Below, piece after piece: positions 5,583-33,146 of a stretch of DNA of 64,000 bases (positions within the stretch are counted from its first letter, which is position 1; each line of letters starts with the position of its first letter). Origin of the DNA: a virus (lineage: Duplodnaviria; Caudoviricetes). The position numbers were made by a program, and so were the translations under genes. The stretch lies in the IMG/VR virus record IMGVR_UViG_3300031998_000005; one strand, given 5' to 3'. The notes beneath the pieces are model-generated. The model was not told the DNA's origin. It did not search any database and was given only the letters and a program-made list of their open reading frames with translations.

Positions 5583-5655
5583 GGACGAATAGCACAATGG
5601 TTAGTGCAACGGACTCATAACCCGTGGGTTCTTGGTTCAAGTCCAAGTTCGTCCA
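5583..5655 (+). tRNA. tRNA with CAT anticodon (Ile2 or elongator Met)
   Basis: Acceptor GGACGAA/TTCGTCC, loop CT-CAT-AA, T-arm CTTGG-TTCAAGT-CCAAG; no encoded CCA. Confidence 0.88.
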
Positions 5656-6178: not shown

Positions 6179-6328
6179 AAAGTTTCAATATGGTAATAGC
6201 CAAAATGACGCTATCTTGCTATATTGAAGTATCGCCCCTTGCGGAGTTCTCCTATTCCGTAAAGGGCGTAGTGAATAGTGAACAAGAACAAACAACGCAA
6301 ACAGCAAACTACATAAAAGGAGTTGAAT

Positions 6329-7741
6329 ATGGCAGGATTTGACCGTAGCCGTATTAGCGGTGGCTTGGGTCGTCGCACCCAACAGCAGACCGATACCCGT
6401 GAATCCGCAGGCGGTGTGGGCCGTCAAGGATTTATGAACTATTCCACGCACAAACTGAAGTTCTTTAAGATGGGCGAGCCTGGGACTTACCACGACTTGA
6501 ACATTTTGCCGTGGCTTATCAGTTCCAAGAACCACCCCGAAGTGGTGGCAGGACACGCACAGGTTGGCGACCCCGACTACGTGCTTGACTTGATGGTTCA
6601 CACTCGTATCGGACCGAACCAGGGCGACTACATCTGCCCGAAGAAGAATTTTAACAAGCCGTGTCCGATTTGCGAACAGGCTGATGAACTTTGGAAGAAC
6701 GACAAGACCAAGGACGAAGCCCGTTCGCTGTTCGCTCGCCGTAAGTGCGTCTATCTCGTGCAGGAACTCACTGACGAGTTCCACGCCAAGAGTGAAGACC
6801 CGATGGTGTTTGAAGTGTCGCACTCCGTTTTCTCCAAGGAATTGCAGAGCCGTGCCACCTCTTGCCTGCGTGGTAAGGGTGTCGTGAATTTCGCTGACCC
6901 CGATGTTAAGGTTGGCAAGGTCGTGTCCTTCTCCGTGAACGAAGAAACGATGGGCAACGGCAAGAAGTTCAAGCAGGCGGGCAACTTTGAGTTCAACGAA
7001 CGTGTTGAAGAAATCAGCGATGAAATTCTTGAAAAGTGTCCGTCCTTGGATTCTATGATGGTCATTAAGACTTATGACCAACTCAAGTCTGCTCTTTATG
7101 GTGACCCCGATGACGTAGAAGAAGATTTTGAAAATCAGCAGGACGAAGACGAACAGCCGTCTGCTCGTTTCCGTGACAACGAACCCCAGGACTACGCAGC
7201 AGGACGCTCTCGCCATAACGATGTGGAAGAAGACGAAGCACCCGCACCGAGGCGTGGTCGTCGCCCTGTTGCCGAAGAAACCGAAGAACCCGCACCGAGG
7301 CGTAGCCGTCCGCAGGCAGAACCCGCAGATGAACAGGAAGAAACCCCTGCTCCCAGGCGTAGTCGCCCGCAGGCAGAAGAACCCGCTCCTGCTCGTTTTA
7401 AGGACAACGAACCCCCCGCAGACGAAGACTTTGTTGTGGACACGTCCGCTGACCCCTACACGGCTGCAAGACGCAGTTCCCGCAAGTCCAAAGTAGAACA
7501 GGATTCTACCAAGGAATCCGTCCGTCCGACTGAAAAAGCACCCGCTATGCCGTTTGACGATGAGGAAGAAGAACAGCCCGCAGAAAAGGCTGAAACTCCG
7601 AAGCGTGGAGCGTCCGAAGGCGAATGCCCGAACGGATATGAATTTGGTAAGGACTGCGAACGCCAACCGCTTTGTAGCCGTTGCCCCGATGCCATTTGGT
7701 CCAAGTGCGATGCCTGCCATCGCAGGATGGCTCGCAAGTAA
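6329..7741 (+). CDS. gp32-like single-stranded DNA-binding protein with long acidic repeat tail and C-terminal Cys cluster
   Basis: H..IGP....ICP......CPICE Zn site; acidic tail; position upstream of recombinase. Confidence 0.7.
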   Translation: MAGFDRSRISGGLGRRTQQQTDTRESAGGVGRQGFMNYSTHKLKFFKMGEPGTYHDLNILPWLISSKNHPEVVAGHAQVGDPDYVLDLMVHTRIGPNQGDYICPKKNFNKPCPICEQADELWKNDKTKDEARSLFARRKCVYLVQELTDEFHAKSEDPMVFEVSHSVFSKELQSRATSCLRGKGVVNFADPDVKVGKVVSFSVNEETMGNGKKFKQAGNFEFNERVEEISDEILEKCPSLDSMMVIKTYDQLKSALYGDPDDVEEDFENQQDEDEQPSARFRDNEPQDYAAGRSRHNDVEEDEAPAPRRGRRPVAEETEEPAPRRSRPQAEPADEQEETPAPRRSRPQAEEPAPARFKDNEPPADEDFVVDTSADPYTAARRSSRKSKVEQDSTKESVRPTEKAPAMPFDDEEEEQPAEKAETPKRGASEGECPNGYEFGKDCERQPLCSRCPDAIWSKCDACHRRMARK

Positions 7742-7808: not shown

Positions 7809-9122
7809 ATGGCTGCTAAAAAGAAAGAAGATTTCGGTGTCATAGCCGAAGAACCCCGTGTCCGTATGGGTAGCGATTTGCTTGACCTACTCGTAGGCGG
7901 TGACAAGGGTGTGTATGGTTTGCCTTTCGGAGTTATCATCCAGATTTGGGGCGATAGTTCTGCGGGTAAGACATTCATCAAGAACGAAATGATTGCCTCT
8001 ACCTATTGGCAGATGGGCGGTCCGAAAGCGAACCTTGTTTGGGAATCCGATGACAGCGAATCGGGCGATACGTTCAAGACGCAGTATCTGTATGGAATTG
8101 ACATCCATCCCGAAACTCGTAAGATTGGCCCGTATGAGTTCCACGATTCTTCTACTGTGGAAGAAATGGACGGCAAATTGACCAATATGCTGAATTGGAT
8201 GCCCGCAGGAACTTACGGCATTTATGCCGTGGACTCCCTTGATGGTCTTGCCGATAAGGAAATCATCGCCAAGGAAGCCGCCCGTGCAAAGAAACAGGCA
8301 AAGGGCGAAGAAGTCAAGGACGAAGGCGATTTCGGTGCCCACATCGCCAAGTTCTTGTCGCAGGACTTTTTCCGCACAAAGCACAAGCCTTTGGAAAAGA
8401 AGAAGACTACACTCATTATCGTTTCGCAGACCCGTTCCAATATCGGTGGGGGCAACTACGGTCCTAAAAGGAAAACGAGTAATGGCGATGCGATGGAGTT
8501 CTACTGCCACACCCGTTTGAAAGTGTCTAGGCTTGCCTGGATTATGCGTGAAGGCACAAAGGTGGGCGTGGTGGTCAAGGCTACGACTACCAAGGCTAAA
8601 ACTCCCCGTCCGTATCGTGAAGTGGTCTATACGGCTTACTTTGATTACGGCATTGACAACATCGGTTCTAACTTGGATTACCTGTTTGACCTTCGTGGCG
8701 ATGACGGGGCATTGAAAAAGTCTGCCGATAGTATCGCTTGGAGTGCCAATGCCAAGAAGAAGACGATGGCTAATCTCAAAGATTGGTTGGATAAGAACGG
8801 GTGGACTGCCGAGTGCAAGGCTGACCGCAAGGCTGCGGAGGGTAGCAACTCCCTTACTGTGGATTGGGTCATCGGGTGGGCTACCGAAGAACCCGAACGC
8901 AAGGCTAATTTTGATGAGGAATTTGGAGAAGAATACTCTCGTGATGAACTTATTAAACTTTGCGAAGACAATCCCGAAATGGCAGAAGAACTGACCCGCA
9001 GAGTGCGTGAAAAGTGGGAAGCACACGAAGACGCAGTAGCGTCCAAGCGACCCTCCAAATACGGCACTCGCCCTGTGGAACAGCCTGCTGAAGAACCCGT
9101 TGAAACAGCCGAAGCCGAATAA
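7809..9122 (+). CDS. RecA/UvsX-like recombinase
   Basis: GSDLLDLLVGG, Walker A GDSSAGKT, AVDSL, IIVSQTR, GDAMEFYCHTRL. Confidence 0.9.
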   Translation: MAAKKKEDFGVIAEEPRVRMGSDLLDLLVGGDKGVYGLPFGVIIQIWGDSSAGKTFIKNEMIASTYWQMGGPKANLVWESDDSESGDTFKTQYLYGIDIHPETRKIGPYEFHDSSTVEEMDGKLTNMLNWMPAGTYGIYAVDSLDGLADKEIIAKEAARAKKQAKGEEVKDEGDFGAHIAKFLSQDFFRTKHKPLEKKKTTLIIVSQTRSNIGGGNYGPKRKTSNGDAMEFYCHTRLKVSRLAWIMREGTKVGVVVKATTTKAKTPRPYREVVYTAYFDYGIDNIGSNLDYLFDLRGDDGALKKSADSIAWSANAKKKTMANLKDWLDKNGWTAECKADRKAAEGSNSLTVDWVIGWATEEPERKANFDEEFGEEYSRDELIKLCEDNPEMAEELTRRVREKWEAHEDAVASKRPSKYGTRPVEQPAEEPVETAEAE

Positions 9123-14402: not shown

Positions 14403-14486
14403 GGGCGAGTGGTGGAATTGGCAGACACGGCAGACTCAAAATCTGTTGGCTTAATCGCCTTGCGGGTTCAAGTCCCGCCTCGCCCA
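14403..14486 (+). tRNA. tRNA-Leu(CAA)
   Basis: GGGCGAG/CTCGCCC acceptor, GCAGA-CT-CAA-AA-TCTGT, long variable arm, GCGGG-TTCAAGT-CCCGC. Confidence 0.93.
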
Positions 14487-32337: not shown

Positions 32338-32366
32338 TTGACAATCGGATTTCAGTAATCTATATT
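32338..32366 (+). promoter_or_regulatory. Promoter of leader peptide / tRNA operon
   Basis: TTGACA-17-TATATT. Confidence 0.8.
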
Positions 32367-32389
32367 ATGGACCGTATAGGAAAATCACT

Positions 32390-32473
32390 ATGAGAAAGAA
32401 CTACGCAAATAATTTCTTCTTTGAAGCCGAGGCTAGTGCCGAAGCCTATTTTGCGTATGCCTTGCAGTGGTGA
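32390..32473 (+). CDS. Attenuator leader peptide MRKNYANNFFFEAEASAEAYFAYALQW
   Basis: AGGA RBS; codons 4-24 use only the six amino acids of the downstream tRNAs. Confidence 0.8.
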   Translation: MRKNYANNFFFEAEASAEAYFAYALQW

Positions 32474-32516
32474 TTTTCCAAGTGCTTTTAATGGGTTAAA
32501 CAGGAAACTCCACTGC
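32464..32516 (+). promoter_or_regulatory. Antiterminator stem
   Basis: GCAGTGGTGATTTTCC (32464-79) pairs with GGAAACTCCACTGC (32503-16), the terminator 5' arm. Confidence 0.7.
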
Positions 32517-32539
32517 GTATGCGGTGGAGTTTTTCTTTT
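32505..32539 (+). terminator. Attenuator terminator before tRNA operon
   Basis: AAACTCCACTGC-GTAT-GCGGTGGAGTTT then TTCTTTT. Confidence 0.85.
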
Positions 32540-32547
32540 ATCCTTAT

Positions 32548-32622
32548 GTGGCGGTAGCGTCAGCCTGGTAGAGCAGGGGACTGAAAATCCTCGTGTCGGT
32601 GGTTCAAATCCACCCCGTCGCA
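32548..32622 (+). tRNA. tRNA-Phe(GAA)
   Basis: GGGGA-CT-GAA-AA-TCCTC; GGTGG-TTCAAAT-CCACC. Confidence 0.88.
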
Positions 32623-32633
32623 CGAACAAATTT

Positions 32634-32706
32634 GGTTTCATCGTCTAGTGGTCAAGGACATTAGGTTTTCAACCTAAAGACTAGGGTTCAAGCCCCTATG
32701 AAACTA
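32634..32706 (+). tRNA. tRNA-Glu(TTC)
   Basis: GGTTTCA/TGAAACT; TTAGG-TT-TTC-AA-CCTAA. Confidence 0.88.
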
Positions 32707-32710
32707 CTAT

Positions 32711-32783
32711 GGGACGTTAGTTCAGTTGGTAGAACGCCTGCCTTGCAAGCAGGAGGTCATCGGTTCAAGTCCGATACGCTCCA
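32711..32783 (+). tRNA. tRNA-Ala(TGC)
   Basis: CCTGC-CT-TGC-AA-GCAGG; G3:U70 identity pair. Confidence 0.92.
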
Positions 32784-32792
32784 CTACATTTT

Positions 32793-32865
32793 TCTGCCCT
32801 AGTTTAATGGTAAAACACCCGCCTGTTAAGCGGAGAGAGTCCACGTCCGAATCGTGGGAGTAGAG
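32793..32865 (+). tRNA. tRNA-Asn(GTT)
   Basis: CCGC-CT-GTT-AA-GCGG; CCACG-TCCGAAT-CGTGG; G discriminator. Confidence 0.8.
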
Positions 32866-32872
32866 CGAATTT

Positions 32873-32955
32873 GGATAGGTATGCAAGTGGCTAAAGCAGG
32901 CGGTCTGTAAAACCGCCCCCTTCGGGGTTCGTAGGTCCGAAACCTACCCTATCCA
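32873..32955 (+). tRNA. tRNA-Tyr(GTA)
   Basis: GGATAGG/CCTATCC; GCGGT-CT-GTA-AA-ACCGC; variable arm CCCCTTCGGGG. Confidence 0.9.
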
Positions 32956-32960
32956 CGAAT

Positions 32961-33043
32961 GGAGAATTACGCTAATTGGTAAGCGACCTCGGTGCTAACG
33001 AGGCGGGTGCAAGCCCTTACAGGTTCAAGTCCTGTATTCTCCG
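32961..33043 (+). tRNA. tRNA-Ser(GCT)
   Basis: GGAGAAT/ATTCTCC; CCTCG-GT-GCT-AA-CGAGG; long variable arm; G discriminator. Confidence 0.88.
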
Positions 33044-33146
33044 TTAGGTTTTTGACAGTATTTTGTGAATATCCTGTTTGCTTTTTGTAGTAAATAGTTA
33101 TATATTAAGTATAAATTCTACAAAATCCCCCGACAAGGAAATCACA

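What the first reader, a model, noticed from the sequence alone, without database searches (positions are those of the whole stretch)
32548..33043. tRNA genes rewritten at near-invariant positions in ways that remove AGCT and TCGA
Seen: the usual TAGCTC D-arm entry appears as TAGCGTC (Phe, inserted G), TAGTTC with compensatory GAAC (Ala), TAGTTT/AAAC (Asn) and TAGCAC/GTGC (tRNA-CAT at 5583). No T-loop is TTCGA: six are TTCAA, and Asn and Tyr have TCCGA, losing the near-universal U55. Ser has an unusual G32. Inference: restriction-site avoidance is strong enough to reshape tRNA structure, and the anticodon-loop changes may also help evade host anticodon nucleases.
Basis: partly seen in the sequence, partly recalled or inferred. 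Interest (0 to 1): 0.72.

Follow-up and report, generated by a model that had tools for sequence, protein, structure and literature searches.

The report
Restriction-site purge rewrites phage tRNA genes
A large phage has removed every copy of several short restriction-enzyme target words from its DNA, even inside its eight tRNA genes, and there it had to change normally fixed tRNA positions, including the almost universal U55, to do so.

Summary
The window is part of a jumbo phage of about 210 kb. It contains no AGCT, CATG, CGCG, GATC, GCGC, GTAC, TCGA or CTNAG, where about 200-245 of each are expected, and only 2 GGCC and 7 CCGG.

None of its 8 tRNA genes has the usual TAGCTC D-arm or a TTCGA T-loop. 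Six have TTCAA. Asn and Tyr have TCCGA, which puts C at position 55.

Relatives that tolerate a given word keep the canonical form in the orthologous tRNA:
- **Phe:** it differs from one relative at a single base out of 76, and that base destroys AGCT.
- **Tyr:** the relative that tolerates TCGA has TTCGA.
- **Ala and the CAT tRNA:** they lose AGCT through compensated stem-pair swaps.

C55 occurs in 0.5% of 606 unbiased phage tRNAs. It occurs in 2 of 8 here, in 4 of 7 in a sister phage, and in 10 of 35 tRNAs from four unrelated TCGA-free phage lineages. So restriction-site avoidance does reshape these tRNAs.

- The extra Phe base is an old family feature. Only its identity, T to G, is new.
- The Asn D-stem and the Ser G32 are not site-driven.
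- Nothing supports evasion of anticodon nucleases.

C55 also occurs sporadically in genomes that tolerate TCGA, so it is rare but viable. Other first readers in this scan noted the same pattern on other DNA.

The parts
5583..5655 (+). tRNA with CAT anticodon. Its D-stem is GCAC/GTGC (A12 at 5594, T23 at 5605) and its T-loop is TTCAAGT.
   Evidence: 68 bits. Orthologues in G002, G004 and G005 have the canonical GCTC/GAGC, which contains AGCT. The window, G001 and G010 have the compensated A12-U23 swap.
14403..14486 (+). tRNA-Leu(CAA), T-loop TTCAAGT. It contains no avoided words, and neither do its orthologues.
   Evidence: It serves as an internal control: its orthologues carry no site, so no site-related change is seen.
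32338..32366 (+). Sigma-70-type promoter TTGACA-17-TATATT in front of the tRNA operon.
   Evidence: 11 of 12 matches. It is conserved upstream of Phe in G001, G002 and G007.
32390..32473 (+). 27-codon leader ORF MRKNYANNFFFEAEASAEAYFAYALQW.
   Evidence: Conserved in G001, G002 and G007. 21 of 27 residues are the six amino acids served by the operon's tRNAs, p = 2.7e-6.
32503..32534 (+). Terminator-like hairpin with a T-run, lying between the leader ORF and tRNA-Phe.
   Evidence: The relatives keep a hairpin here, but with different stem sequences.
32548..32622 (+). tRNA-Phe(GAA). It has an extra D-stem base, G at 32559, where relatives have T. Its D-loop reads CCTGG (T at 32566) where G002 and G007 have CCCGG. 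Its T-loop is TTCAAAT.
   Evidence: It shows 1 difference in 76 from G001, and that difference kills AGCT. It shows 2 differences from G002 and G007, and both kill avoided words (AGCT and CCGG). A Bacillus phage homologue has the canonical GCTCAG and TTCGA.
32634..32706 (+). tRNA-Glu(TTC), with the normal Glu-type D-arm and T-loop TTCAAGC.
   Evidence: The G001 orthologue uses TCCGAAT instead, so sister phages solve the same tRNA in both ways.
32711..32783 (+). tRNA-Ala(TGC). Its D-stem is GTTC/GAAC (T11 at 32721, A24 at 32734). A57 is at 32767. G3-U70 is kept.
   Evidence: The homologue in G006, which tolerates AGCT and TCGA, has GCTC/GAGC and TTCGA.
32793..32865 (+). tRNA-Asn(GTT). Its T-loop is TCCGAAT, with C55 at 32847. 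Its D-stem is GTTT/AAAC.
   Evidence: G001 has the same C55, and compensatory changes elsewhere keep the cloverleaf. The only other IMG/VR match to this T-arm carries T55 and lies in a contig that tolerates TCGA.
32873..32955 (+). tRNA-Tyr(GTA). Its T-loop is TCCGAAA, with C55 at 32937. Its variable loop reads TTCG (T at 32922) where G002 has TCCG.
   Evidence: The G002 orthologue has TTCGA, and CCGG in the variable loop. Pairs in the anticodon stem covary.
32961..33043 (+). tRNA-Ser(GCT). Its T-loop is TTCAAGT and it has G32 at 32992.
   Evidence: The G002 orthologue has TTCGA and the same G32.

Best explanation
The phage is under selection, most likely from many host Type II restriction enzymes, to carry not a single copy of a set of short palindromes. 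The fully absent words are AGCT, CATG, CGCG, GATC, GCGC, GTAC, TCGA and CTNAG. GGCC and CCGG are nearly absent.

In protein genes these words can be removed by synonymous codon changes. In tRNA genes they cannot, and the canonical tRNA consensus itself contains them: A9-G10-C11-U12 is AGCT, C11-U12-C13-A14-G15 is CTCAG, and U55-C56-G57-A58 is TCGA. The tRNA genes therefore escape by the cheapest change available at each site:
1. Free loop bases, as in CCGG to CTGG in the Phe D-loop and CCGG to TCGG in the Tyr variable loop.
2. A bulged D-stem base, T to G in Phe.
3. Compensated swaps of stem pairs, C11-G24 to U11-A24 in Ala and U12-A23 to A12-U23 in the CAT tRNA.
4. The semi-conserved purine 57, G to A, in six tRNAs.
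5. The near-invariant U55, changed to C, in Asn and Tyr.

Shown: the absence of the words, the tRNA variants, their link to each relative's own avoided set, and the enrichment over base rates.

Inferred: that host restriction enzymes are the selecting agent; that the family-wide extra T in Phe arose to break CTCAG; and that the C55 tRNAs are processed, charged and used.
For: - **Word counts:** the window has 0 of each of the seven 4-mers against 195-245 expected and 0 of 245 expected CTNAG.
- **Relatives avoid different sets:** G001 has AGCT 335 observed/828 expected and TCGA 4/828. G002 has AGCT 439/831, TCGA 467/831 and CCGG 627/621. G006 has TCGA 540/512.
- **Orthologue alignments:**
  - Phe differs from G001 at 1 of 76 bases, and that base removes AGCT.
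  - Phe differs from G002 and G007 at 2 bases, both removing avoided words.
  - Tyr has TCCGA against TTCGA in G002.
  - Ala and the CAT tRNA carry compensated D-stem swaps against canonical GCTC/GAGC in G006, G002, G004 and G005.
  - Leu, whose orthologues hold no site, shows no such change.
- **Glu is solved both ways:** TCCGA in G001 and TTCAA here, so the choice looks contingent.
- **Base rates:** of 606 unique phage tRNAs, 71% have TTCGA, 25% TTCAA and 0.5% C55. Among non-selected tRNAs, 25% have AGCT and 19% have CTNAG in the D-arm.
- **C55 frequencies:** 2 of 8 here (p = 0.0015) and 4 of 7 in G001 (p = 2e-7).
- **Independent replication:** four unrelated phage lineages with TCGA-free loci have 0 TTCGA, 22 TTCAA and 10 TCCGA among 35 tRNAs that were not used to select the loci.
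- **The tRNAs are under purifying selection:** they are 86-99% identical to their orthologues, against about 74% for the alignable genome. Stems covary.
- **The operon looks like a working unit:** it has a conserved promoter, leader peptide and terminator.
- **Literature:** the review PMC7912444 confirms that U55, C56 and purine 57 are conserved and that G57 is the commoner purine in bacteria.
Against: - The host and its restriction enzymes are unknown, so the selecting agent is inferred only from the palindrome pattern.
- C55 is not exclusive to TCGA avoidance. Most of the more than 111 C55 phage tRNAs found by pattern scan sit in contigs that tolerate TCGA.
- At least 120 bacterial stretches carry C55 tRNAs, 45 of them tRNA-Gly(GCC).
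- The Ser-GCT of G006 has TCCGA although G006 tolerates TCGA.
- G001 keeps the AGCT-free D-stems in Ala and the CAT tRNA although it has AGCT at 40% of expectation. Not every variant therefore tracks the present avoided set.
- The direction of each change is inferred from a few genomes.
Confidence: 0.85

Rival explanations
1. Relaxed constraint or decay. Phage tRNAs are dispensable and drift away from the consensus, and the odd positions (C55, the D-stem bulge, G32) are simply degeneration unrelated to restriction sites.
For: C55 tRNAs occur singly among canonical tRNAs in many phages that tolerate TCGA. The Asn and Tyr tRNAs score lowest against RF00005, at 48 bits. The Asn and Ala acceptor stems each hold one mismatch.
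Against: The differences from the orthologues fall exactly on avoided words, for example 1 of 1 and 2 of 2 differences in Phe. The tRNAs are far more conserved than the genome, at 86-99% against 74%. Stem changes are compensated. TTCGA, the commonest T-loop at 71%, is entirely missing here. The operon keeps its promoter, leader and terminator.
Confidence: 0.05
2. RNA-level adaptation. C55 and G32 are selected because they change the tRNA itself. Possible benefits are escape from host nucleases that target tRNA or recognise its elbow, or independence from the host enzymes TruB and TrmA. On this view the loss of the DNA word is a side effect.
For: Phage tRNAs have been proposed to evade anticodon nucleases through loop mutations (PMC10264068) and to rescue phages from tRNA-cleaving retron effectors (PMC11555353). 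C55 persists in some genomes that tolerate TCGA. G32 is rare, at 7 of 603, and is conserved between the window and G002.
Against: Within this family C55 appears only where TCGA is absent, and U55 reappears in the orthologue of the TCGA-tolerant relative. The alternative TTCAA solution, which keeps U55, is used for six of the eight tRNAs. Seven of the eight anticodon loops are canonical. No RNA ligase was found in the near-complete relatives. The D-arm changes are silent at the level of pairing.
Confidence: 0.07
3. Host mimicry. The variants are copied from, or match, the host's own tRNAs, in which these forms are standard.
For: Some bacterial lineages do carry C55 tRNAs, notably tRNA-Gly(GCC) in MAGs titled Bacteroidales and Prevotella.
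Against: The tRNAs are orthologous among the phages, with Phe identical apart from the site-killing bases. The variants therefore arose within the phage lineage. The bacterial C55 cases are mostly Gly and Thr, not Asn and Tyr. The host is unknown.
Confidence: 0.02

Closest known systems
Restriction-site (palindrome) avoidance in dsDNA phages (Rusinov et al. 2018, PMC6286503)
   Same: Short palindromic targets of orthodox Type II enzymes are eliminated. That paper reports complete or nearly complete elimination for about a tenth of viral genomes.
   Different: Here at least eight words are entirely absent at once. The effect is followed into structural RNA genes, where conserved tRNA positions are changed. 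That paper does not mention tRNA at all (0 occurrences), and my literature searches found no report of it.
Phage tRNA clusters such as those of T4- and T5-like and other large phages (RF00005 tRNAs)
   Same: A tandem operon of six tRNA genes without an encoded CCA. All match the tRNA covariance model.
   Different: TTCGA and TAGCTC, the commonest T-loop and D-arm forms (71% and about 25-40% of phage tRNAs), are wholly absent. Two of the eight carry C55.
Phage tRNAs proposed to evade anticodon nucleases through anticodon-loop mutations (van den Berg et al. 2023, PMC10264068)
   Same: Phage tRNAs that depart from the consensus as a result of conflict between host and phage.
   Different: There the pressure acts on the RNA, in the anticodon loop. 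Here it acts on the DNA word, and the changes lie in the D-arm, variable loop and T-loop. The anticodon loops are canonical except for one G32.
Sporadic natural C55 tRNAs, for example tRNA-Gly(GCC) in Bacteroidales-type MAGs and single tRNAs in many phage arrays
   Same: The same TCCGA T-loop within otherwise canonical cloverleaves.
   Different: Those sit in genomes that tolerate TCGA, and in phage arrays usually as one C55 tRNA among many canonical ones. In TCGA-free phages C55 reaches 25-57% of tRNAs and TTCGA drops to zero.

Membership tests
tRNA (Rfam RF00005) | Score at or above the gathering threshold (29 bits) over the full 71-position cloverleaf model. | tested here: met
   All eight score 47.9-69.3 bits over model positions 1-71. 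ARAGORN assigns anticodons to all of them.
tRNA (Rfam RF00005) | Conserved T-loop T54-U55-C56-R57-A58. | tested here: not met
   Asn and Tyr have C55 (TCCGA). The other six meet the feature with A57. The base rate of C55 is 0.5%. These two are variant tRNAs, not non-tRNAs.
tRNA (Rfam RF00005) | The cloverleaf is maintained by compensatory change among orthologues. | tested here: met
   In the Tyr alignment, 15 of 24 pairs have changes on both sides. In the Asn pair of sequences there are 2 compensated pairs.
tRNA (Rfam RF00005) | Processed, CCA-tailed and aminoacylated in the cell. | not testable with these tools
No gene encodes CCA, and no CCA-adding enzyme was found in the relatives, so host maturation would be needed.
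Restriction-site avoidance | Strong under-representation of short palindromic Type II target words relative to base composition. | tested here: met
   Seven 4-mers are at 0 against 195-245 expected. GGCC is at 2, CCGG at 7 and CTNAG at 0 of 245 expected. TGCA, ATAT and AATT are near expectation.
Restriction-site avoidance | The avoided set differs between lineages, as expected from different host enzyme repertoires. | tested here: met
   Every relative has its own set. For example, G002 tolerates CCGG, GTAC and TCGA but not GATC or ACGT, and G006 lacks only GTAC.
Restriction-site avoidance | The host encodes restriction enzymes that cut the avoided words. | not testable with these tools
   The host is unknown and no genome is held for the window.
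Phage tRNAs that evade anticodon nucleases | Substitutions in the anticodon loop at nuclease recognition positions, relative to the host tRNA. | tested here: inconclusive
   Seven of the eight loops are canonical (Y32-U33-NNN-A37-A38). Only Ser has G32. The host tRNAs and nucleases are unknown.

The most novel reading that the evidence does not exclude
The C55 tRNAs are fully functional without pseudouridine 55. On this reading, defence pressure at the DNA level has produced, repeatedly and in unrelated phages, working tRNAs that lack the most conserved modified position in tRNA. The altered elbow may also give a secondary benefit, such as independence from host TruB or reduced recognition by host factors that bind the elbow. 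The family-wide extra base in the Phe D-stem would likewise be a selected insertion that breaks the CTNAG word.
Probability: 0.15. Interest if true: 0.8.

Novelty: new variant of a known kind. Interest (0 to 1): 0.55.

Why it matters
Restriction-site avoidance is usually treated as a matter of codon choice. Here it collides with sequence that cannot be recoded, so the phage's choices amount to a natural ranking of which tRNA positions can be given up. Free loop bases go first, then a bulge, then compensated stem pairs, then purine 57, and finally U55.

It also shows that a single restriction site in a genome of about 210 kb is costly enough to outweigh the near-universal U55 (pseudouridine 55).

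The same outcome recurs in unrelated TCGA-free phages. tRNA T-loops could therefore serve as a quick marker of restriction pressure, and the C55 tRNAs are ready-made natural test cases for what pseudouridine 55 contributes.

Tried and rejected
- **Cultured relatives:** a megablast of the region against isolated phages gave only short tRNA hits. The DNA polymerase is under 25% identical to any isolated phage. No cultured relative or host emerged.
- **Whole genome and sequencing runs:** no whole genome is held for the window.
- **Pattern scans for more relatives:** scans with the Phe and Tyr 5' ends returned mostly unrelated contigs. Only G007 and G006 added orthologues.
- **C55 as unique to TCGA-free genomes:** I expected this, and it was rejected. 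Most pattern hits in IMG/VR and in bacterial genomes lie in sequence that tolerates TCGA. The base rate comes from the separate unbiased scan.
- **Phage-encoded tRNA enzymes:** searches of the relatives for a CCA-adding enzyme (PF01743) and an RNA ligase (PF09414) found nothing.
- **Earlier notes:** a look-up for look-alike stretches in other genomes of this scan returned nothing.
- **Asn D-stem as AGCT removal:** rejected, because TAGTTC-type arms contain no AGCT and G001 shares the same stem.
- **Ser G32 as site removal:** rejected, because neither C32 nor T32 would create an avoided 4-mer in the window, and G002 shares G32.

Full report
**What the window is.** The window encodes a family A DNA polymerase (7-2133), a gp32-like single-strand binding protein (6323-7741) and a UvsX/RecA-like recombinase (7809-9122). 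Isolated phages are only distantly related, with under 25% identity for the polymerase. IMG/VR holds clear relatives at 64-90% recombinase identity, including two near-complete contigs of 213 and 215 kb, here called G001 and G002. The window is therefore part of an uncultured jumbo phage. No host genome or whole genome is held for it.

**The observation.** ARAGORN and Rfam agree on eight tRNA genes: CAT at 5583, Leu-CAA at 14403, and a tight operon of Phe, Glu, Ala, Asn, Tyr and Ser-GCT at 32548-33044.
- TAGCGTC in Phe.
- TAGTTC/GAAC in Ala.
- TAGTTT/AAAC in Asn.
- TAGCAC/GTGC in the CAT tRNA.
- Six TTCAA T-loops.
- TCCGA in Asn and Tyr.
- G32 in Ser.

**Word counts in the window.** AGCT, CATG, CGCG, GATC, GCGC, GTAC and TCGA each occur 0 times where 195-245 are expected. 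GGCC occurs twice and CCGG seven times. TGCA, ATAT and AATT are near expectation. CTNAG is also absent, at 0 of 245 expected, as are several 6-mers.

**Is it more than chance?** I drew an unbiased sample of phage tRNAs. I scanned IMG/VR with a D-arm pattern that leaves positions 55 and 57 free, then called every tRNA in the returned loci. Of 606 unique tRNAs:
- 428 (71%) have TTCGA.
- 150 (25%) have TTCAA.
- 3 (0.5%, 95% CI 0.1-1.4%) have C55.

Among tRNAs not used for selection, 25% carry AGCT and 19% carry CTNAG in the D-arm. Eight tRNAs without a single TTCGA has a probability of about 5.5e-5. Two of eight with C55 gives Fisher p = 0.0015. G32 occurs in 7 of 603 phage tRNAs.

**The natural experiment.** Each relative avoids its own set of words. 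Counts below are observed/expected.

| Genome | AGCT | TCGA | CCGG | Other |
|---|---|---|---|---|
| Window | 0/245 | 0/245 | 7/195 | CTNAG 0/245 |
| G001 | 335/828 | 4/828 | 2/687 | - |
| G002 | 439/831 | 467/831 | 627/621 | GATC 0/831 |
| G006 | 241/512 | 540/512 | 931/603 | GTAC 0/512 |

G006 is a more distant phage with a homologous tRNA cluster.

Orthologous tRNAs then behave as the restriction reading predicts:
- **Phe:** it is identical to the G001 gene at 75 of 76 bases. The one difference (T to G at 32559) destroys AGCT. Against G002 and G007 there are two differences, and both destroy words the window avoids: AGCT, and CCGG in the D-loop.
- **Tyr:** it has TCCGA where its G002 orthologue has TTCGA, and TTCG where G002 has TCCGG in the variable loop. 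The remaining differences are two compensated anticodon-stem pairs and one D-loop base.
- **Ala:** the window and G001 have GTTC/GAAC and TTCAA, where the G006 homologue has GCTC/GAGC and TTCGA.
- **CAT tRNA:** the window, G001 and G010 have GCAC/GTGC, where G002, G004 and G005 have GCTC/GAGC.
- **Leu-CAA:** its orthologues hold no avoided word, and it shows no such change.
- **Glu:** G001 has TCCGAAT while the window and G002 have TTCAA. Sister phages therefore used both escapes for the same tRNA, which makes the choice look contingent rather than tRNA-specific.

The only other IMG/VR match to the Asn T-arm pattern carries T at position 55 and lies in a contig that tolerates TCGA.

**The Phe D-arm.** A close homologue in Bacillus phage vB_BanS_Nate is nearly identical from G22 onward. 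It has the canonical TAGCTCAGTTGGTAGAGC and TTCGA.

The canonical GCTCAG contains CTCAG, a CTNAG word. CTNAG is avoided across the family: window 0/245, G001 6/828 and G002 21/831. GCTTCAG has no CTNAG. My inference, not shown, is a two-step history. An inserted T first broke CTNAG in the family, and the window lineage then changed that structurally free bulged base to G to break AGCT.

**Are the variant tRNAs real genes?**
- They are 86-99% identical to their orthologues. The alignable part of the genome is about 74% identical, and less than half of the window aligns at all.
- Stems covary. In a six-sequence Tyr alignment, 15 of 24 pairs have changes on both sides. Asn has two compensated pairs between the window and G001, both of which carry C55.
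- The operon has a strong sigma-70-type promoter (TTGACA-17-TATATT), a 27-codon leader ORF and a terminator hairpin, all conserved in G001, G002 and G007. Of the leader's 27 residues, 21 are Phe, Glu, Ala, Asn, Tyr or Ser, p = 2.7e-6, and its Ser codon is AGT, which tRNA-Ser(GCU) reads. I use it only as a sign that the operon is built for use in translation.
- None of the genes encodes CCA. No CCA-adding enzyme or RNA ligase was found in the near-complete relatives, so host enzymes would have to accept the altered elbows.
- Expression could not be tested.

Most hits are single C55 tRNAs among canonical ones in contigs that tolerate TCGA. The same pattern hit at least 120 stretches of bacterial genomes, 45 of them tRNA-Gly(GCC), largely in MAGs titled Bacteroidales or Prevotella. 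The Ser-GCT of G006 also has TCCGA although G006 tolerates TCGA. C55 is thus a rare but evidently viable variant.

What TCGA avoidance does is raise its frequency sharply:
- 9 of 111 C55-selected loci are TCGA-free, against 1 of 117 generic loci.
- These TCGA-free loci share no detectable similarity with the window's family and fall into at least four groups.
- Among their tRNAs not used for selection, 22 have TTCAA, 10 have TCCGA and none has TTCGA. That is 29% C55, against 8% in the TCGA-tolerant loci of the same scan and 0.5% in the unbiased sample.

The same two-way solution, A57 or C55, has therefore arisen repeatedly.

**What is not supported.**
- The Asn D-stem (GTTT/AAAC) removes no avoided word, and G001 shares it.
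- G32 of Ser is unusual, but G002 shares it, and neither C32 nor T32 would create an avoided 4-mer in the window.
- The other seven anticodon loops are canonical.

The idea that the anticodon loops evade nucleases, as proposed for other phages (PMC10264068; PMC11555353), has no evidence here.

**Comparison with what is known.** Elimination of Type II target words in phage genomes is well documented. Rusinov et al. (PMC6286503) report complete or almost complete elimination for about a tenth of viral genomes, but the paper never mentions tRNA. My full-text searches found no report of restriction avoidance altering tRNA genes. [quoted passage not shown]

I file this as a new variant of a known kind: ordinary restriction-site avoidance, followed into structural RNA where it overrides semi-invariant and near-invariant positions. 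Other first readers in this scan noted TCCGA/TTCAA T-loops in other TCGA-poor genomes. Those notes are unchecked leads. I tested the pattern myself on G001 and on unrelated IMG/VR loci.

**Verdict.** The restriction-avoidance interpretation is supported at about 0.85, with the host enzymes inferred. The anticodon-nuclease idea is unsupported. Interest is moderate, at 0.55. The cause is a known force, but the outcome is a clean, replicated natural mutational scan of tRNA invariants, and it is open to direct test.

Noticed in passing
window 32338-32534: A promoter (TTGACA-17-TATATT), a 27-codon leader ORF MRKNYANNFFFEAEASAEAYFAYALQW and a terminator hairpin lie directly upstream of the tRNA operon. 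The leader is conserved in G001, G002 and G007. 21 of its 27 residues are the six amino acids whose tRNAs follow, and its Ser codon is AGT, which tRNA-Ser(GCU) reads. It looks like a leader-peptide attenuator, as other first readers noted.
   Followed up: partly
window 1-64000: Besides the 4-mers, CTNAG is absent (0 of 245 expected). CCSGG is at 2 of 92 expected, and GAATTC, CTGCAG and GTATAC are at 0. CCTC (49 of 183 expected) and GAGG (103 of 263 expected) are also depleted. The residual CCGG sites are at 1199, 16250, 17123, 18424, 44204, 55551 and 56336, and the GGCC sites at 6419 and 8127.
   Followed up: partly
L314-L433 (bacterial genome contigs): tRNAs with a TCCGA T-loop (C55) exist in bacterial assemblies whose local sequence tolerates TCGA. 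45 of the hits are tRNA-Gly(GCC), many in MAGs titled Bacteroidales or Prevotella. This may be a lineage-wide C55 isoacceptor.
   Followed up: partly
G006 (L070) 92071-92162 of the contig: The tRNA-Ser(GCT) of G006 has TCCGA although G006 tolerates TCGA (540 observed/512 expected). It resembles the C55 Ser-GCT of G001. It could be a relic of past avoidance or a transfer between phages.
   Followed up: no
G002 contig 119105-119936 (L045): G002 has about 830 bases without a detectable tRNA between Tyr and Glu, where the window has Ala and Asn. Its leader peptide nevertheless still holds Ala and Asn codons.
   Followed up: no
L065 1600-1650: An unrelated 268-kb contig with 53 tRNAs holds a stretch identical to the variable loop and T-arm of the window's Asn tRNA, except for T at position 55, followed by an acceptor-like strand and CCA. 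ARAGORN calls no tRNA there. It may be a tRNA 3' half or a minihelix.
   Followed up: no
G010 (L006) 7134-7208, G006 contig 81659-81733 and G002 contig 139256-139332: An initiator-like CAT tRNA lying outside the window shows the same logic. G006 has GAGC...GCTC, CGCG and TTCGA. G010, which lacks all these words, has GAGA...TCTC, CGCT and TTCAA.
   Followed up: partly
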